Virus record (IMG/VR): IMGVR_UViG_3300045988_107955
Origin: a virus
Strand: one strand, 5' to 3'
DNA: 48,678 nucleotides
How positions within the stretch are numbered: the first letter of the stretch is position 1; every line of letters starts with the position of its first letter. A program made the translations under genes and the position numbers. The notes under the pieces are model-generated. The model made no database searches and had not been told where the DNA came from. It worked only from the letters and a program-made list of their open reading frames with translations. This document shows positions 34,489 through 48,678 of this stretch, in pieces.

Positions 34489-35913
34489 TTACCCCTCGTT
34501 TGAAACTTCAAGATTACCCTTAATAGTAACTTTACCAAGAGCATCTTGTACTGAAGTAGATTTAATCTTTTCAAGTGCATCTACCACTTTAGCATTTGCT
34601 TCAGAAATAGCTTGTTTAATTTCTTCTGAGTCTCTAGATTGGCTAGCTAGAAATCTATCAAAGTCAGCATCAGGTAGGTTAAGATGTTTAGCTCCTGCAG
34701 ACTGTAGCTGTGTAACAGTTTCAATATCACCAATACCAAACACTCTGCCATTAACTACAGCCACATAACCAGTGGCACCACTTTGACTTCTTACTACAAA
34801 ATTCATGTTTTCATCCTCTTCTTCTACATTACTAGATGATGTTACTTCATCATCAATCAATACAATATTCTTATCTAGTCCACCTGCAATACCAGTAGAA
34901 GTAAACTGCCACCATCTCATGTGTTCTATACCAGGGAATACACCCCAATAAGGAGTAGGAGTTACTTCATAGTTAGGGTATCCTGCAATCCATAGACTAT
35001 TAGGATACTTAGCTGTTACTTGGTCGATATAGACATTTGCTAGTGTATAAGGCTTGTAGCTATAGTAAATAGGTTCAAAGCCTGCTTGTTTACACTTATC
35101 CATAAAGGCAATTACAGCATCAGTGTTAGCTTGTACGTTACCACTAGCACTATCCTCATAGTCACACACTAAGTATCTAGGTTTGCTTGGTAGATTACTG
35201 ATGAAGAAGTCAGCTTCAGATTGTGCTAAGCCTACATCTCCACCGAATCTAGCAAAGTGATAATACCCTACACAGTTACTTGTATTGGTTTGTTGAGTAA
35301 CTACAGGAGACAACCATCCAGTACCTTCAGTAACTTTAATAATGGTATTTCTAGTACCACTAGCATTACAGATGTCTGTTAGGTCTCCTGGTTGATAAGC
35401 TGATACATCAATGAAATAGTCATCTTTCTTCATACCACTAGCTACAGGAGATGATTCTGAGCTGTTAGTAACTACTGCAGTATTGTTAGCTGATTTAGGT
35501 CTAAAAGCAGTAGCAAATGTAGCTGAGTAAGGTAGAGCTACAATGTTAAATACTCCACCACCATTGGGGTTTCTTTGTTCTCCACCTTGGTTTTGACCTA
35601 AGAAGTTACCATATCCATTACCTGCATCACTGTCAAAGATAGCTACATGAGAATAAGGTGTTGAAGGTGTAACATCAAAGATAGCTACATCTCCTGATTG
35701 CATTACTTCTACTTCATCAAAGTAGTTAAGGATACCATTACTATGTCTTTGAGTCCACAGGTCTTGTGCATATCCACTGTCAGTACAGTTAATAACAGGA
35801 ACACCTAAGTAGTTACAGTATTCTGCAAAACCATCCCAACATTGGTCTCCAAACCAACCATCAATGTCATAACCATTACCAAGGTGAGTATTTTTAAAGT
35901 CTTGATAACTCAT
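34489..35913 (-). CDS. Endolysin: CHAP endopeptidase + GH25 muramidase + C-terminal domain
   Basis: CHAP: FGDQCWDG...YSHVAIF. GH25: IDVSAYQ, IIKVTEG, YHFARF, DYEDSA. The N-terminal 350 aa closely resemble the streptococcal phage B30/PlyGBS-type lysin as I remember it. Confidence 0.85.
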   Translation of the reverse strand: MSYQDFKNTHLGNGYDIDGWFGDQCWDGFAEYCNYLGVPVINCTDSGYAQDLWTQRHSNGILNYFDEVEVMQSGDVAIFDVTPSTPYSHVAIFDSDAGNGYGNFLGQNQGGEQRNPNGGGVFNIVALPYSATFATAFRPKSANNTAVVTNSSESSPVASGMKKDDYFIDVSAYQPGDLTDICNASGTRNTIIKVTEGTGWLSPVVTQQTNTSNCVGYYHFARFGGDVGLAQSEADFFISNLPSKPRYLVCDYEDSASGNVQANTDAVIAFMDKCKQAGFEPIYYSYKPYTLANVYIDQVTAKYPNSLWIAGYPNYEVTPTPYWGVFPGIEHMRWWQFTSTGIAGGLDKNIVLIDDEVTSSSNVEEEDENMNFVVRSQSGATGYVAVVNGRVFGIGDIETVTQLQSAGAKHLNLPDADFDRFLASQSRDSEEIKQAISEANAKVVDALEKIKSTSVQDALGKVTIKGNLEVSNEG

Positions 35914-36122
35914 TATTCAATTCCTTTATTATAACTTGTGCTTGATAGACCTACCAAAGCACCAATGAAAGTACCTAAAGCAGTCAATACAGTAACAATA
36001 ACACCTGTAGTTTCAGGGTATCCTACTGCAATACCTACAGTACCTACAAAGGTAGCTAAAGCAGGAATAAAAGTAATTGCTACAAACTTAAGTACATCAT
36101 AAGTTTTATTACTAAAAATCAT
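35913..36122 (-). CDS. Holin (69 aa, two TM segments)
   Basis: KTYDVLKFVAITFIPALATFVGTVGIA...VTVLTALGTFIGALVGL. It lies immediately upstream of the endolysin with a shared start/stop base. Confidence 0.75.
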   Translation of the reverse strand: MIFSNKTYDVLKFVAITFIPALATFVGTVGIAVGYPETTGVIVTVLTALGTFIGALVGLSSTSYNKGIE

Positions 36123-36555
36123 TGTATCTTTCCTCTCTAATTTCTAGATTGTCATACTTACTATAGAGCATTTTAATTTCACCATTACCACCATTATTAT
36201 GGTAAATAGTATACATCTTAGCTATCTCTGTAGCTTCATCTACAAAGGTATAACCACGCTCTAAAGCTTTGACTAGTGTATTATATAAGCCAATCCTAAA
36301 ATGGCTCTTAGAGAAGCTCTCAGTAGCTTCTATTTGCTTTTGTTGAGCTTCATTGTCAATAACCAAGTCTCTAACATCATTAGTAAGTTTAGAAAGAGTT
36401 TCATTTAATTGATTTTGATGAGCAATTACCTGTTCTCTTTCTTCTCTACTCTCTTTGACATATTTCTTAACTGTCATGTAAATACCTACACATGTAGATA
36501 GTGTTGATACTGCTCCCCCTACAGTAGTCATTAAAATATCAACTGATATATTCAA
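36112..36555 (-). CDS. Membrane-anchored lysis-module protein (second holin / lysis regulator candidate)
   Basis: One N-terminal TM segment (ILMTTVGGAVSTLSTCVGIYMTV), then a helical domain of about 110 aa. It lies adjacent to the holin. Confidence 0.45.
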   Translation of the reverse strand: MNISVDILMTTVGGAVSTLSTCVGIYMTVKKYVKESREEREQVIAHQNQLNETLSKLTNDVRDLVIDNEAQQKQIEATESFSKSHFRIGLYNTLVKALERGYTFVDEATEIAKMYTIYHNNGGNGEIKMLYSKYDNLEIREERYNDF

Positions 36556-36557
36556 TT

Positions 36558-37520
36558 CTACTTACCTTCTTCTTTAGGTTTAGTGTCCTCTTCTTTTTTC
36601 TTCTTCTCTTCTTCTTCCTTTTGCTTACGCTCAGCAATCTTTTCATCTGACCAATCACAAGCACCACATAGTACGTTACAAGGGTCAGTAGGCAATCCAA
36701 TATTAGGGTTGTGGTTAATGTATTGAGCTGTAATACTACTCCTTGTAGGAGCAAATACCCATTCATCTAAAGTAGATAGCATCTTAAGAACATCAGATGA
36801 ACCACCTTCAGGTTTAAGGTCAAATTCTTTATTGTATTCAAGTGTTCTATTGATGTCTTGTTCCCAAGATTGGCCAGGGTCATATCCTTTTTGGAAAACT
36901 ACATTGTTATCAATATCATAGATAGTGAATCTACCATTATGATTAGTAGTAGGTGCTTTATTGACATACTTAATTTTATCAATTCTGATAGCACTAATTT
37001 TAGCATGGATAGAACCATCTTTATTAGGTGTGTAGCTATGAATTACTTTACCAAAAACATTACCAACACCAACTTCACCTGTTTCTACCATATTCCATAC
37101 AATAGTAAAATTACCATTAGTGTCAGTCTTAACTACACTATAAGTAGTACCACCTGATGTAGATGTTTGTGTACCATCTGACTTCATAGCTAACTCTACA
37201 TTGTCACTTAACTTACCAATTAGGAAGTCTACAAGAGCATTTAGTTTCTTTTCATGACAGTTAGCTACAGCACATAGGTTATCTACACGCTTATCTAAAT
37301 TAACTACCATAATAAGCAAGTCTCTTAGGAAACACCATAAGAAGTAAGCATATTGAGCTAGTCTTTTAGGTAGACCTACACAAGATGTATTTGCTAGTAA
37401 ACAAGTATAGTCTTTCAAGACCTTAAGCTTCTTTTCCATTACATCTTGTCTTTGTTCTACCTCTACACAGACATCAATCTTTTCACATTGACAATCTCCA
37501 CATTGTCCTAAGCAAGACAT
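36558..37520 (-). CDS. Cys-capped fibre-like protein P4 (320 aa), N-terminal paralogue of 37520-39082
   Basis: MSCLGQCGDCQCEK...KLKVLKDYTCLLANTSCVGLPKRLAQYAYFLWCFLRDLL aligns by eye with the P3 N-terminus. The C-terminal tail is rich in Lys and Glu. Confidence 0.5.
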   Translation of the reverse strand: MSCLGQCGDCQCEKIDVCVEVEQRQDVMEKKLKVLKDYTCLLANTSCVGLPKRLAQYAYFLWCFLRDLLIMVVNLDKRVDNLCAVANCHEKKLNALVDFLIGKLSDNVELAMKSDGTQTSTSGGTTYSVVKTDTNGNFTIVWNMVETGEVGVGNVFGKVIHSYTPNKDGSIHAKISAIRIDKIKYVNKAPTTNHNGRFTIYDIDNNVVFQKGYDPGQSWEQDINRTLEYNKEFDLKPEGGSSDVLKMLSTLDEWVFAPTRSSITAQYINHNPNIGLPTDPCNVLCGACDWSDEKIAERKQKEEEEKKKKEEDTKPKEEGK

Positions 37521-39082
37521 TAGTTACCTCCTGTTAATTCTTTAGGTACAGGTGTTAAGTCTCCACAAGTAACACTAATAGCTTTAACCTCAAAGAGTTG
37601 TGGTTCTTCAGGTCTTGTAGGCTTAATAGGTTCTGTAGGTTTAGTACCTGTAGGTTGGGTTGGTCTAGTAGGTTCAGTTACTGTAGGTTCATTAGGTCTA
37701 ACAGGTTCAGTCTGAGTAGGTCTAGTAGGTTCTACAGGTTTATTACCACCAGGAGCTACAGGTTCTGTAGGTCTTTCAGGTACAACTACAGTTCTCTTAG
37801 TAGGTTCTTTTGGTCTACCATCCATAGAGATTGTAGGAGCTGTAATCTTAAGTGATACCTTGTTTTTAGAGCCTGAAACCCACATATCATCATAGAATAG
37901 GAAGTCAATAGTTTGTGATTGACCTTGGCTGATATTAATATCATGAGACAAAGGATAAGTAACATCAAGAGCTTGTGTAAATGCTGATTGTCCTCTATAG
38001 GATTTAGACCAAATAACAGCACCATTAGGTTTCTTGTAAGTGATACTAAAGTCTGAGAAAGCTACTTTAGGAGATACCTTATCATAACTTACCTCTTGGA
38101 TAGTAACACTGTTAGCCTTGATGTTTACACCACCAGTAATACCACTGTAGCTAGCATTGAATCCTACATTACCTCTAAGAACCCAGTAACCAATATTTTC
38201 AGTTCCATCATTGATAGGAGACTTAATAGTAAAGTTACCAGTATTCTTATCAAAAGTATACTCATCAGCTAAGTCATTGTTAGTATTAGCAATCTCTTTA
38301 AACTCAAAAGTATATCCAATATTACCTACAAGACCTGCTTCCCATCTCTTGAAAGCTTTATTATATTCAGCAATAGCTGTCTGATAGTCAGATTCAGCTC
38401 TCTCAGCCTCTCTAAGCTTGTCATTGTACTCCTTAAGCTTTCTATCATACTCAGCCTTAAGACGTGCATACTCGCTATTAGAGGCGTTATATGATGCCAT
38501 ATCACTGTTATACTTCTCTACAGCTTTAGTATACTCAGCCATTACTTTTCTGTAAGCTTCTAAGTCAGTATTATACTTAGCAATAGCTTTAGTATAATCA
38601 CTTCTTAACTTATCATAGTTAGCTTTGTCTTTTTCATACTGAGCTACAGCAGTCTCATAATCCTTATTGGCTTTATTAAAGCTTGCTAGACCATCTTGAT
38701 AAAGCTTGTAGTTCCTATTGTAAGTCTCCATAGCTTCATTGTAGATAGCTAGTTTAGTGTTATATTCATTGAGGATTCTAGAGTTTTCTTTGTTAGCAGT
38801 AAGTTGTTTCTCTACTTCTACTGCTAAGTCTGAAATCTTTCTACATAGTTCCTCATCACGCTTCTTAAACACTGTAAGGTCTAACTCTTGTTGCATCCTA
38901 AGAATGTCTCTAAGGATACACCATAGCATGTAGAACCCTTTAGAGAGGATTCTAGGAAGGTCAATACAGTTAGCGTTAGCAATAACACATACTAAGTCAT
39001 GAAGGACTCTTAGCTTGTCTTCAATGTCTTTTTTATTTTTAGCTTCAATGCATTCACAATCATTGCATCCAGTACAAGCCAT
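37520..39082 (-). CDS. Cys-capped fibre/adhesin-like protein P3 (520 aa) with a Tyr-heptad helix, a beta-rich domain and a Pro-rich repeat (antigen I/II-like layout)
   Basis: N-terminal cap MACTGCNDCEC. Tyr or Phe occurs every 7th residue over about 135 aa. A 73-aa P/T/E-rich repeat (RPTEPV, KPVEPTRPT, ...) lies near the C-terminus. Confidence 0.55.
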   Translation of the reverse strand: MACTGCNDCECIEAKNKKDIEDKLRVLHDLVCVIANANCIDLPRILSKGFYMLWCILRDILRMQQELDLTVFKKRDEELCRKISDLAVEVEKQLTANKENSRILNEYNTKLAIYNEAMETYNRNYKLYQDGLASFNKANKDYETAVAQYEKDKANYDKLRSDYTKAIAKYNTDLEAYRKVMAEYTKAVEKYNSDMASYNASNSEYARLKAEYDRKLKEYNDKLREAERAESDYQTAIAEYNKAFKRWEAGLVGNIGYTFEFKEIANTNNDLADEYTFDKNTGNFTIKSPINDGTENIGYWVLRGNVGFNASYSGITGGVNIKANSVTIQEVSYDKVSPKVAFSDFSITYKKPNGAVIWSKSYRGQSAFTQALDVTYPLSHDINISQGQSQTIDFLFYDDMWVSGSKNKVSLKITAPTISMDGRPKEPTKRTVVVPERPTEPVAPGGNKPVEPTRPTQTEPVRPNEPTVTEPTRPTQPTGTKPTEPIKPTRPEEPQLFEVKAISVTCGDLTPVPKELTGGN

Positions 39083-39094
39083 TTAGTACCTCCT

Positions 39095-39580
39095 TTATAA
39101 TGATTCACTTAAAGTGATAGTTTGATTATCTTTTTTAAGGATAACAAAAGAAGCCATCATGCCATCATCCAAGTTCATAGTTCTTGTAACAGTTAAATCA
39201 CCATATTGTTGAATATTTAGAATATCCTCATGGATGATACAAAGCTCTTCACCAATATTTGTGTCATAAGTTTTGATTGTAGTATTAAAACTTACCTTAC
39301 TTACACTATATCTAGGAAGAAAACTATTAGTTATGTTTGCTGATAGCAAAACCCTAGGTTCTCTACTAAAAATTTGTGAGGGAACAAATTTATTTTTTTG
39401 AATACTGTAGTTAATACCATTAATAAACATATTAATGTTAGTAAATGGAATTGTAACTCCTTTAGCATACTTAGCTACAGAGTTTATAAACTCCTTATCA
39501 TAAGGGTTTGTACCATTACCTTTGATTACAGAGTTATCAATAGAGATACCTTCTCTTTTTAAAATACCATAATCATGCAT
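39095..39580 (-). CDS. Hypothetical protein downstream of fibre P2 (161 aa)
   Basis: Shares its start/stop base with the upstream fibre gene. It may be a fibre accessory protein, chaperone or distal domain, judged by position only. Confidence 0.4.
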   Translation of the reverse strand: MHDYGILKREGISIDNSVIKGNGTNPYDKEFINSVAKYAKGVTIPFTNINMFINGINYSIQKNKFVPSQIFSREPRVLLSANITNSFLPRYSVSKVSFNTTIKTYDTNIGEELCIIHEDILNIQQYGDLTVTRTMNLDDGMMASFVILKKDNQTITLSESL

Positions 39581-40548
39581 TAGTTAGTTACCTCCCTTAG
39601 TGAGTAGACAAGTTCTGCTAGTGCTACTTCAGGTTCTTCCATAGTCACTTCAATAATGTATTCATCCTGGAAGTTAGCTCCAAACATAAGACCTTTTGTT
39701 AGGTTATTAAGTGAAGCAGGAACAGTCAATGTAGGTTCTTCAGTAATAATACTATTGTTGTCTAAGTCAAACTTGTAGAACTCAAAATAGAATGATAAGT
39801 TAAGAACACCAGTTGTACTTAAGTCATACATAACATGAATATTACCAAAAGCTTCAGGGAATGTATATCTACCTACCATAGAGATACCTTCTAAGTCAGA
39901 TTGGTTAATTGGTATAGTAAAGTAAGTCAAAATGTATTCTTGTGTCTGTGTACTACTTCCTTGTCCTTTATACATCTTAGTAGTAATTTTAGGAAACCTA
40001 ATATATAGTTCCTTATCACCAAAAGTATACTGAGGAGTCGGAAGAGTAACTTGAATAGCATTTGTAGTTAATAAACTATTAAACTCTTTAACACCTAACT
40101 GTGTTAGTGTTTTTAGTTTATTACTAATACCATTAATACTAGCTACTAGTTTGTACTTAGTGTTTGTATCAACTACAGAATTGTTAATAGTACCATCTTC
40201 AGTAATAGTAATACCAGTACCTGCTTTATAAGTAGTACCTTTAGGAATCTCTACTGAGTTACCATTACTAATACTTAGTGTAGTACCATTCAAAGTAAGT
40301 GTTTGTTTATCATTATCTTCTTTAGCTTCTAGTTTTTCTACTCTAGCTACAAGAGGTTTATCATCATAAGAAGTACCTCCTGTAGTTGCTGTAGATGTTA
40401 ATTCAGTAAAGCCATCACCATTTTCATTAAGGATATAGGCTTTATTGTCAGGCATAATATAGGCATGGTTTCTAGTTGCATAGTCTAGGTCTGGTAAGGC
40501 TTCTACCCTCTTAAATACAGGGTTACACCATGAAATACAGTCACCCAT
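39580..40548 (-). CDS. Tail fibre-like protein P2 (322 aa)
   Basis: The N-terminus MGDCISWCNP...LPDLDYATRNHAYIMPDNKAY...ELT is paralogous to P1. It shares LEAKEDNDKQTLTLNGTTLSISNGNSV with P1. Confidence 0.55.
   Translation of the reverse strand: MGDCISWCNPVFKRVEALPDLDYATRNHAYIMPDNKAYILNENGDGFTELTSTATTGGTSYDDKPLVARVEKLEAKEDNDKQTLTLNGTTLSISNGNSVEIPKGTTYKAGTGITITEDGTINNSVVDTNTKYKLVASINGISNKLKTLTQLGVKEFNSLLTTNAIQVTLPTPQYTFGDKELYIRFPKITTKMYKGQGSSTQTQEYILTYFTIPINQSDLEGISMVGRYTFPEAFGNIHVMYDLSTTGVLNLSFYFEFYKFDLDNNSIITEEPTLTVPASLNNLTKGLMFGANFQDEYIIEVTMEEPEVALAELVYSLREVTN
40300..40331. repeat. 32-nt segment shared with 41627-41658 (31 of 32 identical)
   Basis: TGTTTGTTTATCATTATCTTCTTTAGCTTCTA here against ...TTTTGCTTCTA in the partner. 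It encodes the shared EAKEDNDKQT motif of fibres P1 and P2. Confidence 0.85.
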
Positions 40549-40558
40549 TTAATACCTC

Positions 40559-41008
40559 CTATGTACGTTTAATGTCACTATAGTTAATCATAGAGACAAT
40601 ACCATTGTCATTATAATCTTTAAGTGATTCCCAGGAAACATCTTTTTGAATAGTCAATGGTTGGTTGACAATTACTAGACCAAACTTAGTTTCCCCCTGA
40701 GTATCTTTATAATCAGGGTTTTCTAGTTTAAACATAGCACCTACACCGTAAGTTTCACCTACAATAGGTTTATTGAACAAGTCAATTAATCTTGCCCACT
40801 GAGTACCATAGAGGAAAGGAGCATAGAGTAGGACTGAGTTAATAGTCTCATTATATGAAGGAGTGTTCTGTAGTTTAAGTACATCCTTAACCATATCATC
40901 TGATTCAAGACTACCTTCATAAGTCCAATTAAGATAAGGTCTAGTGTCAGTTACAGTGATGAGAGGGAAGTTGTTTTCTCTCTCTTCTCTTTTAATTTTA
41001 ATAGCCAT
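40559..41008 (-). CDS. Hypothetical protein downstream of fibre P1 (149 aa)
   Basis: Lies between two fibre-like genes. No motif recognised. Confidence 0.4.
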   Translation of the reverse strand: MAIKIKREERENNFPLITVTDTRPYLNWTYEGSLESDDMVKDVLKLQNTPSYNETINSVLLYAPFLYGTQWARLIDLFNKPIVGETYGVGAMFKLENPDYKDTQGETKFGLVIVNQPLTIQKDVSWESLKDYNDNGIVSMINYSDIKRT

Positions 41009-41011
41009 TAA

Positions 41012-42277
41012 TTAGTCCTCAACAATCTTAACAAGTTTCATTACAAGTTTAAGTTTTTTATTTAATGACTTCTTATCATCATTTGTTGATGCTTTATAGT
41101 CATTAATCATGGTTTGAAGACCACTTTCTAAATTACTAAATTCTAAGTACAAACCGTCATTTTGTAAAATAGGTTTACTGCCACATAACAAAGAAAGACT
41201 TGTTACTGAAGCATTATTAAATAGTTTGTTTGAAGCATAGATATTTGAGTCACTAAATTCTTCATCTAAACCACATACATAGAAACTCCATGATACAAAG
41301 TCAGGGTCAGTATAAGGGAATGATACACCATCCTTAAATGGAATAGTTACTTTACCACTAAAATCTTCTAGTGTCCATTCTTTTTCAATAGAAGCTACTC
41401 TAAACTTGTTGTTTTGTTTAATAGTATCAATTTCATCTAAAGCACTAGTAATCATTAAGTATAGACCTTTTAATGTAGAATCAGCCCATACATCAAAATC
41501 TGTAAGTCCTTCAGTATATCCTTGGAAAGCACCTGTCATAATTTTCTTAAACAAAGGGTCACTTTCTTCAGGAAGTGTAATAGAGTTACCACCTGAGATA
41601 CTGATTTCCTTACCATTAATAGACAATGTTTGTTTATCATTATCTTCTTTTGCTTCTAAAGTAGTAAGTCTAGTTTCATCAGAAGTAACTTTAGCTTCCA
41701 ATCCTGAAGGGTCAAAGATAGTATCTTTATCTTCTTTGGTTTCAAGCTTAGTTACAGTAGCTTTTACTTCTTCAAGAGCTTTCTTAATTTCAGAATCATC
41801 ATAGATAGTGTCTTTATCCTCTTTAGCGTTTAAGGCATCTGAGAGCTTCTGTACTGCTTTGTTTACATCCTCTAGTCCTGTTACACTAGTCTTACCTTCA
41901 AGCTCCTTTTTAAGGGCTTCTATGGCTTCTGAGAGGGTCTTATCTTTATCAGTAGGTTTATCTTCTTTGTCAGATGGTTTTTCATCATTCTTAGCTTTAA
42001 GAGCTTTTTCTACTTCAATGACTCTATTAGTCAAGTCTAGGAGAACATTAAGCTTATTAGTTTCTGTAGCTTCATCTCTTGTCAATTCAAGCCATGCAGT
42101 ACAGTTAGCATTTGCATACCACAACTTAGAGTCAGGTGTACGATACAAGTAATGTCTTGAAGTTCTTCCTAGTGTAGGAAGGCAATTTACATCAAGAATA
42201 GGTTTGCAGTTAGAGCTATATTGTCCTGAACATTCGTTACATTCATTACAGCTATTACATCCACAGTTTGTACACAT
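41012..42277 (-). CDS. Tail fibre-like protein P1 (421 aa) with extreme N-terminal Cys cluster
   Basis: MCTNCGCNSCNECNECSGQYSSNCKPILDVNC has 8 Cys in 32 residues. KEDKDTI repeats form a coiled-coil stalk, followed by EAKEDNDKQTLSINGKEISISGGNSITLPE. Confidence 0.55.
   Translation of the reverse strand: MCTNCGCNSCNECNECSGQYSSNCKPILDVNCLPTLGRTSRHYLYRTPDSKLWYANANCTAWLELTRDEATETNKLNVLLDLTNRVIEVEKALKAKNDEKPSDKEDKPTDKDKTLSEAIEALKKELEGKTSVTGLEDVNKAVQKLSDALNAKEDKDTIYDDSEIKKALEEVKATVTKLETKEDKDTIFDPSGLEAKVTSDETRLTTLEAKEDNDKQTLSINGKEISISGGNSITLPEESDPLFKKIMTGAFQGYTEGLTDFDVWADSTLKGLYLMITSALDEIDTIKQNNKFRVASIEKEWTLEDFSGKVTIPFKDGVSFPYTDPDFVSWSFYVCGLDEEFSDSNIYASNKLFNNASVTSLSLLCGSKPILQNDGLYLEFSNLESGLQTMINDYKASTNDDKKSLNKKLKLVMKLVKIVED
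41627..41658. repeat. 32-nt segment shared with 40300-40331
   Basis: See the partner entry at 40300-40331. It is a possible module-exchange boundary between the two fibre genes. Confidence 0.85.
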
Positions 42278-42291
42278 ACGGTGTACCTCCT

Positions 42292-42498
42292 TTATTTATA
42301 TAATTCTACTTTAGCTAAGTAACTTAGTATGTTAATCTCCTTAGTTCTTCTAAGAGCTTCTGACCTAAGAGCTAGGATACAGATAACTGCTTGATAGTCT
42401 TCAGGATGATTAAGTAAGTGTTTGTTTAATAAGTCAATTCGTCTATTAACTACAGAGAGCTTAAGAGACTTCTTATGAAGGATATTGGTGTAATTCAT
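42292..42498 (-). CDS. Small hypothetical protein (68 aa)
   Basis: A compact ORF between the virion lysin and fibre P1. It is helical and basic. Confidence 0.45.
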   Translation of the reverse strand: MNYTNILHKKSLKLSVVNRRIDLLNKHLLNHPEDYQAVICILALRSEALRRTKEINILSYLAKVELYK

Positions 42499-42506
42499 TG
42501 TTGCTC

Positions 42507-44681
42507 CTAATTTAAGTGATTATACTTAAGATAAGTTCTTAAAATAACATCTGCTTGCATTGAACCAGTAATTTCTACTAGATGCTCACCACTTCTAAAG
42601 ATTTTCTTTTGTTGTTCTTCAGTGAGTGCTGTAGCTCCTAACATAACATCATAACCATGATTAGGTTTATCATCTGGGAATACTGAGTATTTGTCAATCC
42701 ATTTACCATCATATTGAGCTTTAAACATAGGTGTAAAGTCAATACCATCAATCTTAACCTTGATGTCTACTGCAAACTTAGCTACATAGTTCCTAGTAAG
42801 TGAGCCATCAGTATTACCTATACTCTTACCACCTGCTACTTCAGGAGGATAGATAAGGTGTCTACCACCACTGAGCATATCATCCATAGTTCTCTGTCTT
42901 TCAACTACAAACCTTTGACCTGATACATTCTGCTCTAGTGTAGTTACTGTATCACCGTTAATAGCTTTAATAACACCAGTATGTCCATAAGGACTGTATT
43001 GATTGGTTTCAGTAAAGATAGCTCCTACCTTCATAGCTTCTCTAGATGTAGGTACTACCTTCCATCCTACAGCATTCCAATCATAACCAATACCAATGTT
43101 ACTAGCTGATAGTGTGTCACCTATGGCATGAGTAATTCCAGTTATACCACCACCAAGACCTACACCACCTAGTTTCATTGAGTACCAAGCTACAAGACCA
43201 TAACACTCACCATTACCTAGTGTAGTACCTTTAAGAGAGTCTAACTCACCAAGTACCTTCATAGTCTCTGTAGCTGTCTGTACCTCTCCTGTAGCTCCAT
43301 TAGGTTCACCACTACTAGCAGTACCAACAATACCACCAAAGTCAGACATTCCTGAACCTCTATTGTTGTTACCATCTGATTGTCCTCCACCACCTGATGA
43401 GTGGAATACAGTACCAGTATTCATGCTATCAGTAGGCTTAAATGAGATGTGAACATGGTCTCCATGATTTTGAGTCTTATTACCTCTATCAGGCATTAAG
43501 CTCCATACTCTAGCAGGCCCATAGATATTATTGACATTCATGAAGAACTTCTGACCCCATATTACATAGTCAATATTAAGTTCATCCATGTTCTCAATAA
43601 CAAAACCTGCAATAGTATCACCAAGTCTATAGTTATCATTAGTCATGAAGTCTACTGCTAGTGATTGGTCTGGTTGGTGTCCTGGGTAAGTAATGAATTG
43701 CTCTTCAGGTGTATTGGTAGCAATAGCTATGGCTCTTTTAACTCTAGCTACATGAGGTTGCCATGCACCTGTAGCTCCATCCCAATGGCTTCTAATGATG
43801 TCTCCAAAGGCATTACCATCAATAAGGTCATAGTAACCATTAGAACCATCAGAAGCATTTGTAGGCTGTAGTAACTGTGCATCAATCTTATCTAGGATAT
43901 TATCATTGTTTAAGTTAATACCTGACCTTACACCATTTGCTAGAGAGTTATAAGAAGCATACCCTGCGGCAGCATAGTCAAACAAAGCTCCACCAATTTG
44001 AAAGAGTCCTTTCATAAACTCATCAAATGTAGTTTTACCTTGGACATTATACATCTTTTGGTTGTTACCTGCAGTTTGTTCAGCTAACAGATACATGTAG
44101 TCAATTAGGAAGTCATCTACAGAAGCAAAGTGCATATATGTACCACCTTCATTAGAAGGTCTAGCACTACCTGTAGTAACTACAACACCTGAAGGTCTAG
44201 TACCTGCAGTACCAGTAATACCACCCCAGTTATTATCAGCTTTAGCTACTGCTGAGTTACCCCAGTTAGACTCAATATAAAGTTGGACAATAACACCTGA
44301 AGGAAGTAGATTGTACTTAGCACATCCATCAAGGATAGTCTGTACTAAACTTGCAGGAAGTGTATTACCACCATAAGTAATATCACCACCAGTATACTTC
44401 TTATCACCACCAAAAGCTGAGCCTTTAGTAGAACCACCTTCTTTAAGTCCTGTCTTAACTCCATAAGGTCTAACAATGATTTTAAACCACCAATGAGCAA
44501 ACTTATCAAAGTCATAAGATATTGATGTATAGAACTGAGCAGGAACATTACTTGTCATTACTGATTGATACTCAATACCATGCAAGTCAGTTACTGAGAA
44601 CCTTCTTTGAAACCCTTGTCTTCTCCATCTCTCTGTAGATGAATTGACTGCATTTAAGAGCTTCTGTGCTTCTGTCTGCAT
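42507..44681 (-). CDS. Virion-associated peptidoglycan hydrolase with three putative catalytic domains
   Basis: Glucosaminidase-like YIESNWGNSAVAKADNNWGGI. Metallopeptidase-like NHGDHVHISF. C-terminal CHAP GNGECYGLVAWY...GHTGVIKA. It sits in the baseplate module. Confidence 0.75.
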   Translation of the reverse strand: MQTEAQKLLNAVNSSTERWRRQGFQRRFSVTDLHGIEYQSVMTSNVPAQFYTSISYDFDKFAHWWFKIIVRPYGVKTGLKEGGSTKGSAFGGDKKYTGGDITYGGNTLPASLVQTILDGCAKYNLLPSGVIVQLYIESNWGNSAVAKADNNWGGITGTAGTRPSGVVVTTGSARPSNEGGTYMHFASVDDFLIDYMYLLAEQTAGNNQKMYNVQGKTTFDEFMKGLFQIGGALFDYAAAGYASYNSLANGVRSGINLNNDNILDKIDAQLLQPTNASDGSNGYYDLIDGNAFGDIIRSHWDGATGAWQPHVARVKRAIAIATNTPEEQFITYPGHQPDQSLAVDFMTNDNYRLGDTIAGFVIENMDELNIDYVIWGQKFFMNVNNIYGPARVWSLMPDRGNKTQNHGDHVHISFKPTDSMNTGTVFHSSGGGGQSDGNNNRGSGMSDFGGIVGTASSGEPNGATGEVQTATETMKVLGELDSLKGTTLGNGECYGLVAWYSMKLGGVGLGGGITGITHAIGDTLSASNIGIGYDWNAVGWKVVPTSREAMKVGAIFTETNQYSPYGHTGVIKAINGDTVTTLEQNVSGQRFVVERQRTMDDMLSGGRHLIYPPEVAGGKSIGNTDGSLTRNYVAKFAVDIKVKIDGIDFTPMFKAQYDGKWIDKYSVFPDDKPNHGYDVMLGATALTEEQQKKIFRSGEHLVEITGSMQADVILRTYLKYNHLN

Positions 44682-46367
44682 CTATACCTCCTTATCGTTA
44701 TATAAGTATTTCTCTACGGTTAATTTAAAGCTTGTGAATCCTTCATAGGTAGTAGTAACTAGAATCTCTGAGATGTAGAAGTAATCATCCTTAGACATTA
44801 CTTTCTTGAAGTATTTAGAACACTTCTCAGATTTAAGTAGTCTGTCTACAAATGTCAATCTTACCTTATCCCCTACATTGTAGTTATTAGGTAAGTCTTT
44901 GATGTCAAAGGTATAACCTACTTTTCTTCTACTATGGATAAGCTTCCTTACTGCTTGTGTGTAAAGTTGTCTACTAGCTACAAGTCTGTCTTCATCTGAT
45001 AGCTCTTTGTTATTGTTAGCTACAGGTTGGACATCATTAGATGTGAATGATTGCTCATATACCCTACCTGCTTCAAGAGCTAGACCTTCTTTATCTAGTA
45101 CAGCATAGTCACCATTATTGTTAGCTCCAAAAGGAATCAAATCAATATAGTCATAACTACGCTCAGTATTTACTTCCTCACCAGTAAGTATAACAGGAAA
45201 GTCAGGATTCTGTAGATAAGGTCTATTATAGACATCTCTAAGAGTAAGAGTAGTAGTACCTGAGTCTGACTTATCTGTAAGATAGATACCATAGTTAGTA
45301 ATTGTAGTGAAGTCTCTTTGAGTTACTAGCTCATTACCTAACAAGTTAGTTTCATTAACCATTAACTCTTTATATTGACCAAACCTACCAATCTCAATAG
45401 TTCTTTCTTCAGTAAGTGATACTCTCCAAAAGACATCCTCAGTCTGTTTACATACATCTGTAAGAGCTTGTAGCTTATCCTGATTAGAGAATAGGTAAGT
45501 GATAACAATATCATCTGTACCTTCTTCAGTGAACTTATAAGTCCAATTCTCATCATTGAACATACCACTAAGCTTAGATAACTCAACATAGTTTACTGAG
45601 ATACCATCATCTTTAGTAGTATTTTCGCCTTTATCTACATCCTTGTCCTCTTTAGGCTTTTCAGTAGTTACTTCAGTCTTACCTTTATTGTAACCATCTT
45701 TAGTAGTTACTGTAGTAGTAACAGTACCATCAGGTCTAGTAGTTACTGTAGTTTGAGTATAAGCTCCTTTACCAGTAACTACCTTAGTAATGTGACTGAC
45801 TACTTCTCTTGTAGTACCATCTGACATCTCATAAGTAGTTGTCTTAGTCTTACTACCATCTTCATTGTAGACTGTGTTAATGGTCTTGTTACCAGTCTTA
45901 GTAACCTTCTTCTCTTCAGGTTCTTCATCTTTCTTATCTTCTTCTCTAGGTTTTTGGTTAGAGATAATCTCTCCACCTTCACCCATTGAAGCAGGTCTAA
46001 TATACTCATCATAAGTATATATTTCACCTAGTGTAAGTTCTTTGATGGCATAGTTTGTAGGTACTCTTCTATGTTGAAGTTCAGTAGCTACATGGACTGC
46101 CTGAATAGTAGTAACACCAGTAACATGGTCTGAATCAATTCTTTCAGTAATACCATGAAAGATATGACCATTATCAAAGGTTAGAACAAACTCAAATTGT
46201 GCATCAGGAATAGGACTATCCATAAGCACTTCAGTAGGAAGTTGGAAACTAATACTAGGTGTATCCATAATTTTATGGCTTACACTAATATTGTTTCCTA
46301 GGAATACATCATTAGTTATGTAGTGTCTAGTGTCCTTAGTTGGTTTCCAATACAGAGTCAGGGACAT
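44682..46367 (-). CDS. Baseplate hub / Tal-like protein with Thr-rich insertion (561 aa)
   Basis: Sits in the baseplate position before the virion lysin, with GGAGG 9 nt upstream of the ATG. An internal low-complexity segment reads TKTTTYEMSDGTTREV...TVTTRPDGTVTTTVTTKDG. Confidence 0.45.
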   Translation of the reverse strand: MSLTLYWKPTKDTRHYITNDVFLGNNISVSHKIMDTPSISFQLPTEVLMDSPIPDAQFEFVLTFDNGHIFHGITERIDSDHVTGVTTIQAVHVATELQHRRVPTNYAIKELTLGEIYTYDEYIRPASMGEGGEIISNQKPREEDKKDEEPEEKKVTKTGNKTINTVYNEDGSKTKTTTYEMSDGTTREVVSHITKVVTGKGAYTQTTVTTRPDGTVTTTVTTKDGYNKGKTEVTTEKPKEDKDVDKGENTTKDDGISVNYVELSKLSGMFNDENWTYKFTEEGTDDIVITYLFSNQDKLQALTDVCKQTEDVFWRVSLTEERTIEIGRFGQYKELMVNETNLLGNELVTQRDFTTITNYGIYLTDKSDSGTTTLTLRDVYNRPYLQNPDFPVILTGEEVNTERSYDYIDLIPFGANNNGDYAVLDKEGLALEAGRVYEQSFTSNDVQPVANNNKELSDEDRLVASRQLYTQAVRKLIHSRRKVGYTFDIKDLPNNYNVGDKVRLTFVDRLLKSEKCSKYFKKVMSKDDYFYISEILVTTTYEGFTSFKLTVEKYLYNDKEV

Positions 46368-46920
46368 TACCGAATACCTCCACAGCTCTAGCCATTACAG
46401 CTTCTTCAGACATATCTTCACTCTTTGATTCTACATTAGACATGATTTCATTCATCTCTTCCTGAGACCTAATAGAATCTGCAAAGCAAGCACTACATGG
46501 TTGAGGATAGAATCCTAGGAATCCTGCTACAACTACATTGAACAACTCTACTGCAGAATGATAGATTTCTTCTACCTCTACATTATTCATGTCTACTTGC
46601 CAAGCTTCAAAAGCAGTAATCATTTGAACTGAAGCATGTTTAAGTGAACACCACAAGTCAGGGTTAGCATCCTCAGTAGAAAGGCTCTGTAAGGCTCTCA
46701 TAACGCTTCTACGCTGTTCTGTAGTTCTCTCTAGTGTTTCCTTCGCAAACTGCAGTTTCTTTGTTAGAGAGCCTCTCACAGCCTCATCTGATGTTCCTTT
46801 AACATAGAGTAAAGAGTAATACTTTTCTACTGTAAGTCTGAAGTGATATTCAAGAGCTACAGTGTTGATTAAGTTGGTAAGTAGTTCTTCTGTTAGTCCT
46901 ACTGATGATTGTTTGTTCAT
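46336..46920 (-). CDS. Acidic helical hypothetical protein (194 aa) between Dit-like and Tal-like genes
   Basis: Coupled to both neighbours. No motif recognised. Confidence 0.45.
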   Translation of the reverse strand: MNKQSSVGLTEELLTNLINTVALEYHFRLTVEKYYSLLYVKGTSDEAVRGSLTKKLQFAKETLERTTEQRRSVMRALQSLSTEDANPDLWCSLKHASVQMITAFEAWQVDMNNVEVEEIYHSAVELFNVVVAGFLGFYPQPCSACFADSIRSQEEMNEIMSNVESKSEDMSEEAVMARAVEVFGNVPDSVLETN

Positions 46921-48056
46921 TAGATTGTCAACCTTTCATAGTCAATAAATACACAGAATGATTCTGAGGTAACACCATCAACTGAGATGATATTATATCC
47001 TCTCTTGATATGCCACCATACATTATCACAAAGTGTTAGATTCTCATTACTTACAACTTCAGCTTCTCCACATAAAGCATCTGTAGGACAGCTAAATGAC
47101 TGAACTAAACCAGTGCTTGAAATAGACAGATAACCTTGGTCATAAGTACCTTTAAGCTTAACCATAGTATCATTAATCATGATTCTAGGGTCTTTAAATT
47201 TACCTTGTAGAGTAATTGTTACATCTCTAGACTCAACTACAGTGTCAGAATAGAACTTGGTAGACCAAGCACCATCCACACAAGCATCACAGTGAGATTC
47301 ACCCCAAAGTCTTTCATCACCAAACCTTTCTCTACCAAGTTCACAGTTATGGATAATACGGTAGTCACTATTACATTTCTGATAGAAACTTAACCATACA
47401 TCACCTTGGACTTCACATAGAGAAATAGCTTTAGATAATTCACAGCAATCTTTAGCACAGTCCTCACAAGTACCATTCAAGGTTCGTGAAGTCTGACAGA
47501 AAGCTTGACATGTAGCATTATGAAAACAACTAGCTATCATGTTTACAAAGTTACAGTCAGCATAAGGAAGAAGGAAAGTAGTATATCCATCTGCCTTGTG
47601 CCATACTGCATCAGGGTTAGTAAAAGCTACTTGAAAGCTTAAGTATCCGTTGTCTCTCATAGTCCACTCATAAGTAGGTGTATAAGAGTCTAGGATAGCA
47701 TTACACCATATAAGCTGACCACCAGTGTCAATAGCCCAAAGCTTACCTACTGTCAATAAGTTATCCTTAATGAAGTCTTGGTGAGCTTGGATATTAACCA
47801 TATCCCAATCTGTAGTTCTAATTGATAAGTCTAGAGTAATCTTATCATCTTTAAGGAGAACTTGGTCTCCTGTAATTTTCCAATAACTACCATTCCTAAA
47901 CATGTACTCTGTAGTTTCATACTTAGTAGTTATTGATTCTGAAGGACTAGAGTTAATAGCTTCAGTACCACTAAACACTAGGTCATTGTATTGAATGAAC
48001 CTTCTAGGTCTAGCTACAAAGTCTGAAGTTGACCTAGCACCTAAACATGTTGTCAT
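46920..48056 (-). CDS. Distal tail protein (Dit) position; exceptionally Cys-rich (378 aa)
   Basis: First gene after the tape measure, with a 4-nt overlap. It has 19 Cys by hand count, many clustered (CFHNATCQAFCQTSRTLNGTCEDCAKDCCELSKAISLC). Confidence 0.5.
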   Translation of the reverse strand: MTTCLGARSTSDFVARPRRFIQYNDLVFSGTEAINSSPSESITTKYETTEYMFRNGSYWKITGDQVLLKDDKITLDLSIRTTDWDMVNIQAHQDFIKDNLLTVGKLWAIDTGGQLIWCNAILDSYTPTYEWTMRDNGYLSFQVAFTNPDAVWHKADGYTTFLLPYADCNFVNMIASCFHNATCQAFCQTSRTLNGTCEDCAKDCCELSKAISLCEVQGDVWLSFYQKCNSDYRIIHNCELGRERFGDERLWGESHCDACVDGAWSTKFYSDTVVESRDVTITLQGKFKDPRIMINDTMVKLKGTYDQGYLSISSTGLVQSFSCPTDALCGEAEVVSNENLTLCDNVWWHIKRGYNIISVDGVTSESFCVFIDYERLTI

Positions 48057-48678
48057 GGTCTAACTACCCCCTTAATTTCACTTAAACCATTGATGAATGA
48101 AGCTTTATTATCTACATTCTGAGTAATGTTGTTAGTAGTATTGTTAACTACAGAGTGCCCTGTATGTCCTGCTAGAGCTTTAAGAGCTTGTGTAAGATTC
48201 ATTTGATTTAGGTTATCAAGGAATTGCTTACCTAACATGGATGATACTGAACGTTTAAGTACATATTCACCTGCAGTTAACATAGCAGGAATAGTATCAG
48301 TACCTAGTGAAGCAAAGCTTCTTCTACCTACTACACCACCTGTAGAGTGGTACTCAGGAATAATACCTCCATGCTGTCTTTTCTTGGTACTCTTAACTGT
48401 AGTTTCATTGATAGTAATATCAACTGTCTTACCTCTAAGAGAATCAATAGCTGACTGAATTTGTTGGATTTTGTTAAGTACAGAACTTACATCAAAACCA
48501 TCAGCAATCTTACTAGAGATTGAAGCACCTAAAGCTTCCCAACCAAGGTTCTCAATTTGATTTTTTTGTTCATTCATCTTGTCAACAATTCTACTTCCTA
48601 GTCCTGATACAAAACCATTAGAGAAGTTAGTACCTGATTGTTGACCAAGTGTTGAAGCCATTGAAGCAAACTGAGCTA
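48053..48678 (-). CDS. Tail tape measure protein, C-terminal part, continuing from base 1 (non-redundant portion 48053-48559)
   Basis: The frame of track ORF 48053-48661 matches the frame leaving base 1, since 48559 is a codon start. The Met at 48661 is internal (…AQFASMASTLGQQSG…). Confidence 0.85.
   Translation of the reverse strand, partial: AQFASMASTLGQQSGTNFSNGFVSGLGSRIVDKMNEQKNQIENLGWEALGASISSKIADGFDVSSVLNKIQQIQSAIDSLRGKTVDITINETTVKSTKKRQHGGIIPEYHSTGGVVGRRSFASLGTDTIPAMLTAGEYVLKRSVSSMLGKQFLDNLNQMNLTQALKALAGHTGHSVVNNTTNNITQNVDNKASFINGLSEIKGVVRP
48560..48678. repeat. Second copy of the 119-bp terminal duplication
   Basis: Identical to 1-119. Confidence 0.95.

What the first reader, a model, noticed from the sequence alone, without database searches (positions are those of the whole stretch)
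37520..39082. Phage fibre protein with streptococcal antigen I/II-like architecture: strict Tyr-heptad helix + globular domain + proline-rich repeat of matching length
Seen in sequence:
- After a Cys-rich N-terminal cap, residues about 95-250 carry Tyr (once Phe) at every seventh position for 18 of 20 consecutive heptads, for example DYETAVAQYEKDKANYDKLRSDYTKAIAKYNTDLEAYRKVMAEYTKAVEKYNSDMASYNASNSEYARLKAEYDRKLKEYN.
- A beta-rich segment of about 165 aa follows.
- Then comes a 73-aa P/T/E-rich repeat: RPKEPTKRTVVVPERPTEPVAPGGNKPVEPTRPTQTEPVRPNEPTVTEPTRPTQPTGTKPTEPIKPTRPEEPQ.

Established knowledge: in streptococcal AgI/II adhesins (SpaP/P1, SspB), the alanine-rich A repeats have the same Tyr heptad (…[23 protein letters not shown]…). 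They wrap around the polyproline-II helix of the P repeats to form a long stalk that presents the V domain at its tip.

Back-of-envelope estimate using standard rises: about 157 helical residues x 1.5 angstrom and 73 PPII residues x 3.1 angstrom both give about 23 nm. The two segments could therefore pair along their full length.

Inference: this is a phage receptor-binding fibre built on the alpha/PPII hybrid stalk principle of its host's own adhesins. It could have arisen by horizontal acquisition or by convergence.
Basis: partly seen in the sequence, partly recalled or inferred. Interest (0 to 1): 0.65.

Follow-up and report, generated by a model that had tools for sequence, protein, structure and literature searches.

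The report
Phage fibre copying streptococcal adhesin stalk
A virus of streptococci carries a tail protein whose core is a true relative of the alanine-helix / tip-domain / proline-strand core of the bacteria's own antigen I/II surface adhesins, probably a thin 25-nm stalk holding a binding domain at its tip, and no such fibre design turned up in the phage records or papers I could search.

Summary
ORF 37520..39082 (minus strand, 520 aa) has a Cys-rich cap and then an aromatic residue at 20 of 21 consecutive heptad positions (0 of 100,000 shuffles reach this). A 169-aa beta domain and a 75-aa PxxP-rich segment follow.

- The central domain matches the BspA V domain of group B streptococcal AgI/II by sequence (E 1.8e-5) and by fold (Foldseek E 7e-10, TM 0.68).
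- A profile of the protein aligns in one colinear stretch across the A, V and P regions of bona fide LPXTG AgI/II adhesins (E down to 4e-31).
- The protein lacks the signal peptide, P1 N-domain, C-domains and anchor, so it holds only the A-V-P core.

The hairpin stalk is inferred, from two results.
- Across 30 relatives, helix length and return-strand length co-vary with slope 0.48-0.53; alpha-helix against PPII predicts 0.48.
- AlphaFold confidence in the Pro segment drops from about 69 to 49 when cap and helix are removed.

The gene sits in the tail module of a complete, uncultured, lytic siphovirus of about 48.6 kb, just upstream of holin and lysin. It is translationally coupled to a shorter paralogue.

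A receptor-binding role is likely but untested. No phage record or paper searched here describes this design.

The parts
38801..39082 (-). Residues 1-94: Cys-rich N-terminal cap (CxxCxxCxC, then C32, C39, W54-C55, C80), followed by the start of the stalk helix
   Evidence: Invariant C3 C6 C9 C11 C32 C39 W54 C55 across 15 diverse family members. The cap is 42% identical to that of the neighbouring ORF. No Pfam hit. Cap-only matches to many phage-type proteins.
38333..38800 (-). Residues 95-250: A-like region, a long alpha-helix with Tyr/Phe/Trp at 20 of 21 heptad positions (YxxxLxxY; frequent Y-N)
   Evidence: AF2 helix 77-198 + 203-252 with pLDDT 78-89. Aligns in register with the SpaP A repeat in PDB 6TZL, weakly (whole-sequence E 3e-3, this stretch alone i-E 0.05).
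37823..38332 (-). Residues 251-420: V-like tip domain, a beta-sandwich of the BspA V type
   Evidence: phmmer against 5DZ8_A, E 1.8e-5. Foldseek against 5DZ8_A, E 7.4e-10, TM 0.68. 28% identity over 320 aa to AgI/II protein P0016, E 1e-19. Aligns with the paralogue's BspA_v domain.
37598..37822 (-). Residues 421-495: P-like region with 20 Pro in a PxxPxxPxxxx pattern (11-aa degenerate repeats); the putative PPII return strand
   Evidence: pLDDT 51-84 in the full-length model against 44-54 without cap and helix. Length co-varies with the helix across relatives.
37520..37597 (-). Residues 496-520 plus stop: C-terminal tail with conserved Cys506 ('VTCGDLTP'). Cys506 is predicted to lie level with Cys80 at the base of the stalk. 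The stop codon overlaps the next gene's ATG (TAATG).
   Evidence: C506 is invariant. A C-terminal Cys or Cys pair is present in all 30 family proteins measured (the coiled-coil member P0047 also has a near-terminal Cys). Cys-to-Cys distances: 172 helical residues against 86-88 extended residues. Junction sequence.
36558..37520 (-). Translationally coupled paralogue (320 aa): same cap, short helix, BspA_v domain, 9-residue return, a C-terminal CxxxCxxC, then an E/K-rich tail
   Evidence: Pfam BspA_v 1.1e-18. 5DZ8 at 1e-18. The long + short pair is conserved in L001, L002, L003 and L024.
34489..36555 (-). Downstream lysis cassette: a conserved 147-aa protein, a Dp-1-type holin (35913..36122) and a CHAP+GH25 endolysin (34489..35913). 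It marks the end of the tail module and points to a Streptococcus host.
   Evidence: The endolysin is 62-64% identical to B30-type lysins of S. agalactiae phages.
39095..48661 (-). Upstream tail and baseplate genes. They include a 724-aa tail lysin (glucosaminidase + CHAP), a 561-aa tail protein, and two further proteins with Cys-rich N-termini (41012..42277 and 39580..40548). The tape measure gene runs across the window ends.

Best explanation
The gene encodes a tail-tip adhesin, the likely receptor-binding fibre, of a lytic Streptococcus siphovirus. Its core descends from the same ancestor as the A-V-P core of BspA-type antigen I/II adhesins.

Proposed mechanism:
1. The helix of about 175 residues (77-252) runs outward for about 26 nm. 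It has a Tyr/aliphatic seam.
2. The BspA-type V domain sits at the tip.
3. The PxxP-rich segment of about 86 residues runs back antiparallel as a polyproline-II strand. It packs its prolines against the Tyr seam, as in SpaP.
4. This return brings Cys506 back to Cys80 and the N-terminal Cys-rich cap. The cap closes the hairpin and presumably plugs the fibre into the baseplate.
5. The V domain then binds a host-surface ligand, most likely a cell-wall glycan, at a distance from the tail tip. The shorter co-translated paralogue offers a second V domain close to the baseplate.

Shown: the periodicities, the V-domain homology and fold, the colinear A-V-P homology to real AgI/II adhesins, the tail-module location, and the co-variation of helix and return-strand lengths.

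Inferred: physical alpha/PPII pairing, the Cys clasp, virion location, oligomeric state, and the ligand.
For: V domain:
- Sequence: 5DZ8 E 1.8e-5.
- Fold: Foldseek 5DZ8 E 7.4e-10, TM 0.68; the SpaP A3VP1 structure 3IPK is also aligned over 555 columns, but only weakly (rank 11, E 7e-3, prob 0.16, TM about 0.1).

Colinear A-V-P homology:
- Profile search of 1.84 billion proteins gave single-stretch matches spanning query 85-500 in LPXTG adhesins P0016 (4e-31), P0023, P0029, P0045, P0053 and P0106.
- P0016, P0029, P0045 and P0028 carry BspA_v + AgI_II_C2 + Antigen_C + anchor, and P0016 and P0029 also Adhesin_P1_N. P0045 and P0028 are named SspB-related adhesins of S. canis.

Stalk chemistry: the SpaP stalk is built from Tyr of heptads locking into PxxP pockets, and BspA uses an Asn seam (review PMC7732690). 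The target has both Tyr heptads and frequent Y-N.

Length ruler, measured from the last Cys before the tip and to the first Cys after it:
- BspA_v-type relatives: slope 0.535, r 0.997 (20 proteins, 14 distinct pairs).
- GbpC-type relatives: slope 0.48, r 0.87 (10 proteins).
- The ratio of rises 1.5/3.1 A predicts 0.48.
- P0004 loses a net 21 helix residues and 10 Pro-segment residues; the 28-residue helix deletion lies at matching height next to V.
- The helix kink at 198-203 and the 'APGG' break at 443-446 also fall at the same calculated height.

AF2 deletion control: pLDDT of the P segment is about 69 with cap and helix and about 49 without. The V domain is unchanged.

Genomic context: TMP, tail lysin, fibres, then holin and lysin. 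This synteny is conserved in diverged phages.
Against: - No coordinates or contact map could be inspected, so A-P contact is indirect.
- The AF2 model is only moderate (mean pLDDT 69.8, 5-sequence alignment), and residues 501-520, which include Cys506, are low-confidence.
- No multimer prediction was possible, and most phage fibres are trimers.
- The length correlation rests on two size clusters and on related sequences.
- Pfam Strep_SA_rep (the A repeat) and Pfam BspA_v did not hit the target itself in my scan. The helix also attracts generic coiled-coil matches.
- The host species, virion location and ligand are all untested.
Confidence: 0.7

Rival explanations
1. It is an ordinary trimeric coiled-coil fibre. 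The Tyr/aliphatic a/d seam drives a parallel three-stranded coil, the V domain is a trimer-presented head, and the Pro-rich segment is a flexible linker or tail with no pairing to the helix.
For: With Tyr at one core position and aliphatic residues four positions later, the helix has a canonical 3-4 hydrophobic spacing. Generic coiled-coil families match it. Trimeric fibres are the norm in phages (established knowledge). DSSP gives the Pro segment no regular secondary structure, and the last 20 residues have low confidence.
Against: - It does not explain why return-segment length tracks helix length at about 0.5 residue per residue in two tip-domain subfamilies.
- It does not explain why every measured family member ends in Cys after the return segment.
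- It does not explain why the main helix deletion and the Pro-segment deletion in P0004 lie at matching heights.
- It does not explain why Pro-segment confidence depends on the cap and helix.
- The homologous bacterial A-V-P units are known hairpins (PMC7732690).
Confidence: 0.15
2. The A-V-P fibre is a virion protein, but its V domain binds something other than the host bacterium. Candidates are the salivary or mucosal glycoproteins and partner microbes that AgI/II adhesins bind. This would anchor the phage in the niche where its host lives, while another tail protein acts as the true receptor-binding protein.
For: AgI/II V-bearing adhesins bind gp340 and Candida Als3 (PMC7732690). The tail module has several other candidate binders: the short paralogue and the ORFs at 39580..40548 and 41012..42277. 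The phage recurs in metagenome-derived viral contigs whose dataset IDs I take, from my own knowledge, to be Human Microbiome Project samples.
Against: There is no direct evidence. The last genes before the lysis cassette are usually host-recognition proteins. Tip domains are swapped among relatives (BspA_v, GbpC-type and others), as expected for host-range determinants.
Confidence: 0.1
3. It is a captured fragment of a bacterial adhesin gene with no structural role, either a passenger ('moron') gene or an assembly chimera.
For: The closest characterised relatives are bacterial.
Against: - The gene is intact and under clear constraint across 20 IMG/VR contigs at 90-99% identity, and in homologues at 37-41% identity.
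- It lacks a signal peptide and an anchor.
- It carries a phage-specific cap shared with many other phage proteins.
- It keeps its place in the tail module in diverged phages.
- The cap was not found in 185,579 species-representative bacterial genomes.
Confidence: 0.05

Closest known systems
BspA and BspA-type antigen I/II adhesins of pyogenic streptococci (V domain PDB 5DZ8; for example S. canis WP_317608703.1 and WP_003045322.1)
   Same: Same V-domain fold and detectable sequence homology. Same order: alanine-rich helix, V, proline-rich segment. These are aligned colinearly by a single profile match. The Asn-after-Tyr pattern recalls BspA's Asn seam.
   Different: The phage protein has no signal peptide, no Adhesin_P1_N domain, no C2/C3 isopeptide domains and no LPXTG anchor. 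Instead it has an N-terminal 7-8-Cys cap and a C-terminal Cys. Its Tyr heptad is far stricter than in the BspA-type proteins examined: 21 of 22 positions, against 3-15 of about 20-30.
SpaP/P1 (S. mutans) and SspB A3-V-P1 stalk (PDB 3IOX/3IPK, 6TZL)
   Same: YxxxLxxY heptads and PxxP repeats, the chemistry that locks the alpha-helix to the PPII helix in SpaP (PMC7732690). The A-to-P length ratio is about 2.1. The A region aligns in register with the SpaP A repeat.
   Different: The V domain is of the other structural type (BspA_v, not the GbpC/lectin type). Repeat units are 7 and 11 aa rather than 82 and 39 aa. Pfam Strep_SA_rep does not hit. The similarity in A and P is weak and partly compositional.
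Uncultured-virus database entries: 'Adhesin protein [Siphoviridae sp. ctK0l2]' A0A8S5NKE1 and 'Glucan-binding protein C [Siphoviridae sp. ctzSN25]' A0A8S5QVQ2, plus the metagenomic proteins P0013, P0014, P0004, P0005 and P0031
   Same: Same family: Cys cap, helix, AgI/II-type tip domain, Pro return, C-terminal Cys, all in phage tail modules.
   Different: These carry only automatic names. None has been studied, and stalk length and tip domain vary between them. No match in 50,697 GenBank phage records by tblastn, and no paper found.
Classical phage fibres and receptor-binding proteins (trimeric coiled-coil or beta-helical shafts with C-terminal heads)
   Same: Gene position at the end of the tail module. 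An elongated shaft with a distal binding domain. Tip domains are exchanged modularly.
   Different: Here the binding domain is in the middle of the chain and the chain returns to its start. The shaft would be an intramolecular alpha/PPII hairpin rather than three parallel chains.

Membership tests
Antigen I/II (AgI/II) adhesin family | V (variable) domain of BspA or GbpC/SpaP type | tested here: met
   5DZ8 phmmer E 1.8e-5. Foldseek E 7.4e-10, TM 0.68. BLASTP against AgI/II protein P0016, E 1e-19.
Antigen I/II (AgI/II) adhesin family | Alanine-rich A region with Tyr heptads upstream of V | tested here: met
   20 of 21 heptads aromatic; Ala is the commonest residue (23 of 156). In-register match to the SpaP A repeat. 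However, Pfam PF06696 Strep_SA_rep gave no hit, either here or at E <= 0.001 in the four bona fide BspA-type adhesins scanned.
Antigen I/II (AgI/II) adhesin family | Proline-rich P region with PxxP motifs downstream of V | tested here: met
   20 Pro in 75 aa; 13 of 19 spacings are exactly 3; 11-aa / 33-nt repeat.
Antigen I/II (AgI/II) adhesin family | A and P pair antiparallel into an alpha/PPII stalk that presents V at the tip | tested here: inconclusive
   Indirect support only: the length ruler has slope 0.48-0.53, indels fall at matching heights, and the pLDDT of P depends on the helix. No coordinates or experiment.
Antigen I/II (AgI/II) adhesin family | N-terminal secretion signal and Adhesin_P1_N domain | tested here: not met
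   The sequence starts MACTGCNDCECIEAKNKKD with no hydrophobic leader. There is no Pfam Adhesin_P1_N hit, whereas bacterial relatives have it.
Antigen I/II (AgI/II) adhesin family | C-terminal C1-C3 isopeptide domains (AgI_II_C2, Antigen_C) and an LPXTG anchor | tested here: not met
   The protein ends 25 residues after the P region, and Pfam gave no such hits. All four scanned AgI/II relatives have them.
Pfam PF18220 BspA_v | Score above the gathering threshold (25 bits) | tested here: inconclusive
   The target gave no hit with PF18220.6. Precomputed PF18220.7 hits are listed for 95%- and 82%-identical homologues and for P0004. The neighbouring paralogue scores 67.9 bits.
Phage tail fibre / receptor-binding protein | Encoded in the tail morphogenesis module, distal to the tape measure and baseplate genes and next to the lysis cassette | tested here: met
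   Gene order is TMP, tail proteins and tail lysin, fibres, holin, endolysin. The synteny is conserved.
Phage tail fibre / receptor-binding protein | Present in virions and required for adsorption to host cells | not testable with these tools
   Needs virion proteomics, immuno-EM and adsorption assays. The phage is uncultured.
Phage tail fibre / receptor-binding protein | Homotrimeric shaft | not testable with these tools
   Only monomer AF2 was available.

The most novel reading that the evidence does not exclude
This is one member of a sizeable, undescribed family of phage tail adhesins. Each protein folds as a single-chain alpha-helix/polyproline-II hairpin closed at its base by a Cys (possibly metal) clasp. 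I found no report of this fibre-building principle in viruses.

The tip domains are traded with the host's own AgI/II adhesins.

In the boldest version, the phage copy of the adhesin stalk docks onto the same partners as the bacterial adhesin: salivary agglutinin or partner microbes, or the host's own surface AgI/II through the A3VP1-to-C-domain self-association described for S. mutans P1. The virus would then exploit the adhesin network of the biofilm rather than a conventional glycan receptor.
Probability: 0.12. Interest if true: 0.85.

Novelty: new variant of a known kind. Interest (0 to 1): 0.7.

Why it matters
1. It would extend the alpha/PPII hybrid stalk from bacterial adhesins, the only place I know it from, to a virus. 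It would also give phages a single-chain way to build a fibre with the binding domain in the middle of the polypeptide.
2. It documents module sharing between phage tail proteins and the major adhesin family of streptococci. Both V-domain types appear on the same phage scaffold. This bears on how host-range determinants and bacterial adhesins evolve.
3. The natural series of stalk lengths that keep a fixed helix-to-proline ratio is an evolutionary 'ruler' experiment. It independently supports the AgI/II stalk model.
4. These phages appear to be human-associated and probably infect streptococci. Their V domains are candidate ligand-specific probes or targeting modules.

Tried and rejected
- Tape-measure protein. 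PHROG tape-measure hits and the SMC, Rad50 and other hits are coiled-coil noise. The real tape measure is an ORF of at least 1495 aa running across the window ends.
- megablast and tblastn of the target, the neighbour and P0031 against 50,697 phage records gave no match.
- P0024 (GbpC type) only hit 'agglutinin receptor' genes in large predicted streptococcal prophage records and one enterococcal phage, and the aligned region excluded the cap.
- Word-indexed homologue searches with the V-domain and cap profiles found few or no relatives. The exhaustive profile search was what revealed the family.
- Two scans of species-representative bacterial genomes, one for P0016 and one for the cap, found nothing. 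Host species and the donor of the V domain therefore remain unknown.
- One cap alignment was too diverse for the locus finder.
- The primary BspA structure paper (PMC4965550) is not held, so details of BspA's Asn seam come from a review.
- No DNA-level tandem repeat underlies the Tyr heptads. The periodicity is therefore kept at protein level and is not the residue of a recent duplication.
- The A-only profile hits are a mixture of AgI/II-like adhesins and generic coiled coils. The A region alone is therefore not diagnostic.
Full report
**1. What is in the sequence**

The finding corresponds to an ORF at 37520..39082 on the minus strand, encoding 520 aa.

- In register from residue 107, every seventh residue is Tyr, with Phe at 135, through to residue 219. 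Then come Ala226, Tyr233, Tyr240 and Trp247.
- Twenty of the 22 aromatic residues in residues 95-250 fall in one heptad register. None of 100,000 shuffles exceeded 12.
- The fifth heptad position is mostly aliphatic, giving YxxxLxxY. The second position is Asn in 9 of 21 heptads.
- Residues 252-420 are beta-rich.
- Residues 421-495 contain 20 Pro spaced 3,3,5 (PxxPxxPxxxx). They are encoded by a degenerate 33-nt tandem repeat.
- The first 80 residues contain 8 Cys. A single conserved Cys, C506, follows the Pro segment.
- Twelve in-register Tyr and 17 of the 20 Pro are invariant in an alignment that includes a homologue of only 41% identity.

**2. Genomic setting**

The window has a 119-nt identical terminal repeat, so it is a circularly closed assembly of about 48.56 kb. 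An ORF of at least 1495 aa, typical of a tape measure protein, runs off the window start on the minus strand.

PHROG and Pfam searches identify the following:
- terminase, portal, protease and capsid genes;
- a 1269-aa DNA polymerase/primase;
- a tail lysin (glucosaminidase + CHAP);
- a CHAP+GH25 endolysin.

On the minus strand the order is: tape measure, tail proteins, tail lysin, several small fibre-like ORFs, the target, a 320-aa paralogue, a 147-aa protein, a Dp-1-type holin, then the endolysin.

Host and relatives:
- The large terminase is only 25% identical to those of lactococcal P087-like phages.
- Nothing in 50,697 GenBank phage records matches the fibre region.
- The endolysin is 62-64% identical to B30-type lysins of S. 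agalactiae phages, which points to a Streptococcus host.
- Twenty IMG/VR contigs carry the gene at 90-99% identity. Many have dataset numbers of the 7000000xxx series, which from my own knowledge (not checked here) are Human Microbiome Project assemblies.
- The cap motif is absent from 185,579 species-representative bacterial genomes. Together with the replication module, this fits a strictly lytic phage.

**3. Relationship to antigen I/II**

Searching PDB sequences with the whole protein gives the BspA V domain (5DZ8) as the top hit, at E 1.8e-5 over residues 278-404. The next hits of interest are SpaP/AgI/II A-region chains. There the Tyr heptads align in register with [23 protein letters not shown] (6TZL E 3e-3; 6E36 and 3IOX are weaker).

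An AF2 model built on five homologues has mean pLDDT 69.8. It shows one long helix (77-198 and 203-252), a ten-stranded beta domain, and an extended Pro segment.

Foldseek against the PDB returns 5DZ8 first (E 7.4e-10, TM 0.68). The SpaP A3VP1 crystal structure 3IPK is aligned over 555 columns, but only weakly (rank 11, E 7e-3, prob 0.16, TM about 0.1).

The neighbouring ORF matches Pfam BspA_v at 1.1e-18 and 5DZ8 at 1e-18.

An exhaustive profile search of 1.84 billion representative proteins found 309 matches.
- Several are long proteins matched in a single stretch covering query positions from about 85-126 to 463-500. That stretch spans helix, V and Pro segment together.
- Their sequences show signal peptides and LPXTG anchors.
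- Pfam assigns BspA_v + AgI_II_C2 + Antigen_C + anchor to all four scanned, and Adhesin_P1_N to two of them (P0016, P0029).
- Two are named 'SspB-related isopeptide-forming adhesin [Streptococcus canis]'.
- Pairwise, the target is 28% identical to P0016 over 320 residues (E 1e-19).

The architecture is therefore shared by descent, not by convergence.

The target lacks every AgI/II part outside A-V-P: the signal peptide, the P1 N-domain, the C-domains and the anchor. It should therefore not be filed as an AgI/II adhesin. It is a phage protein built around the AgI/II stalk-and-tip core.

**4. A phage family with a common scaffold**

The same profile search returned many proteins that match only the N-terminal cap. 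Their sequences share the following scaffold:
- CxxCxxCxC, two further Cys and a WC motif, all invariant;
- a helix of variable length;
- a tip domain, which may be BspA_v, a GbpC/SpaP-type V domain or something else;
- a Pro-containing return segment;
- a C-terminal Cys or Cys pair.

The GbpC-type members even keep the A-to-V and V-to-P junction motifs of SpaP.

Some members are fused behind a larger N-terminal domain (P0005, P0020, P0044). One is a tandem of two modules (P0031). P0031 has the same length (747 aa) as BFVD's best structural match, 'Adhesin protein [Siphoviridae sp. ctK0l2]', though I did not compare the two sequences.

Contexts are phage tail modules. The pair of a long A-V-P fibre followed by a short BspA_v protein is conserved even in a phage whose fibre is less than 50% identical.

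In the window, the stop codon of the target overlaps the ATG of the short paralogue (TAATG), and a GGAGG lies upstream.

**5. Does the Pro segment pair with the helix?**

I could not inspect coordinates, so I used three indirect tests.

(a) A natural length ruler. For each family member I counted the residues from the last Cys before the tip domain to the domain, and from the domain to the first Cys after it.
- For 20 BspA_v-type proteins (14 distinct pairs) the slope is 0.535 with r 0.997.
- For 10 GbpC-type proteins the slope is 0.48 with r 0.87. Other anchors give 0.53 and 0.38.
- An alpha-helix (1.5 A per residue) running antiparallel to a PPII strand (3.1 A per residue) predicts 0.48.
- In the target, Cys80 to the helix end is 172 residues, about 258 A. 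The end of V to Cys506 is 86-88 residues, about 260-270 A.
- Caveat: the BspA_v data form two size clusters, and the sequences are related.

(b) Matching indels and breaks.
- Relative to the target, P0004 lacks 28 helix residues next to V and gains 7 far from V, a net loss of 21 residues or three heptads. It also lacks 10 Pro-segment residues next to V. That is 31.5 A against 31 A.
- The only helix break in the model (198-203) and the 'APGG' low-confidence break (443-446) both lie about 78 A from V by the same arithmetic.

(c) A deletion control. Re-predicting residues 251-520 alone leaves the V domain's confidence unchanged. The Pro segment's mean pLDDT falls from about 69 to about 49.

These tests fit the published AgI/II stalk, in which heptad Tyr residues lock into PxxP pockets (Larson 2010, as summarised in PMC7732690). 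They make the hairpin the best reading. It remains an inference.

**6. Function**

Several features make a receptor-binding or adhesion role the most likely one:
- the position at the end of the tail module;
- the distal binding domain;
- the swapping of tip domains among relatives;
- the absence of secretion and anchoring signals.

The ligand is unknown. Alternatives are a conventional trimeric coiled coil with a floppy Pro tail, binding to non-host ligands of the AgI/II type, or a passenger gene. These are weighed in the rivals section.

**7. Novelty**

Six full-text literature searches found nothing on phage proteins with AgI/II architecture. Cultured-phage records lack the gene. Only automatically named entries from uncultured viruses exist.

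I rate this a new variant of a known kind: the AgI/II A-V-P stalk on a phage-specific Cys-clasped scaffold.

Noticed in passing
window 16535-16606 (-) and 16771-16841 (-): The phage encodes tRNA-Arg(TCT) and tRNA-Cys(GCA). A phage-borne tRNA-Cys is notable next to a tail module in which at least four proteins begin with Cys-rich N-termini.
   Followed up: no
window 36558-37520 (-): Short paralogue (320 aa) with the same Cys cap (42% identity), a short helix, a clear BspA_v domain, a C-terminal CxxxCxxC cluster and an E/K-rich tail that the L001 and L002 homologues lack. Its ATG overlaps the target's stop codon (TAATG).
   Followed up: partly
window 1-119 and 48560-48678; minus-strand ORF 1-~4490: A 119-nt identical terminal direct repeat shows the window is a circularised whole-genome assembly. 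A tape-measure-like ORF of at least 1495 aa runs off the window start and is missed by ORF listing.
   Followed up: partly
window 41012-42277 (-) and 39580-40548 (-): Two further tail-module proteins have Cys-rich N-termini (MCTNCGCNSCNECNECSG...; MGDCISWCNP...) and related N-terminal regions. They share a 35-aa block of 63% identity ('LEAKEDNDKQTL..NG...SIS.GNS'). The block suggests a common attachment or repeat module distinct from the fibre cap. Homologues occur in L002.
   Followed up: partly
L002 4870-7260 (P0005); also P0020, P0044, P0049: In related phages the cap-stalk-V module is fused behind an N-terminal domain of about 360 aa and a Pro-rich linker, and it carries a GbpC/SpaP-type V domain instead of BspA_v. 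Both AgI/II V-domain types therefore occur on one phage scaffold.
   Followed up: partly
L025 7001-9244 (P0031): A 747-aa protein made of two helix-V-P modules in tandem; the second carries the Cys cap. It is encoded after the endolysin in contigs of about 59-65 kb. Its 90%-identity cluster has 535 members, so this phage type is abundant.
   Followed up: no
window 42507-44681 (-): A 724-aa tail-associated lysin combining a glucosaminidase and a CHAP domain. This is separate from the CHAP+GH25 endolysin at 34489-35913.
   Followed up: no
window ~20000 and ~34000: GC skew changes sign at about 20 kb and about 34 kb. These points match the switch between the minus-strand structural and lysis genes and the plus-strand replication module, which includes a 1269-aa polymerase/primase fusion.
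   Followed up: no
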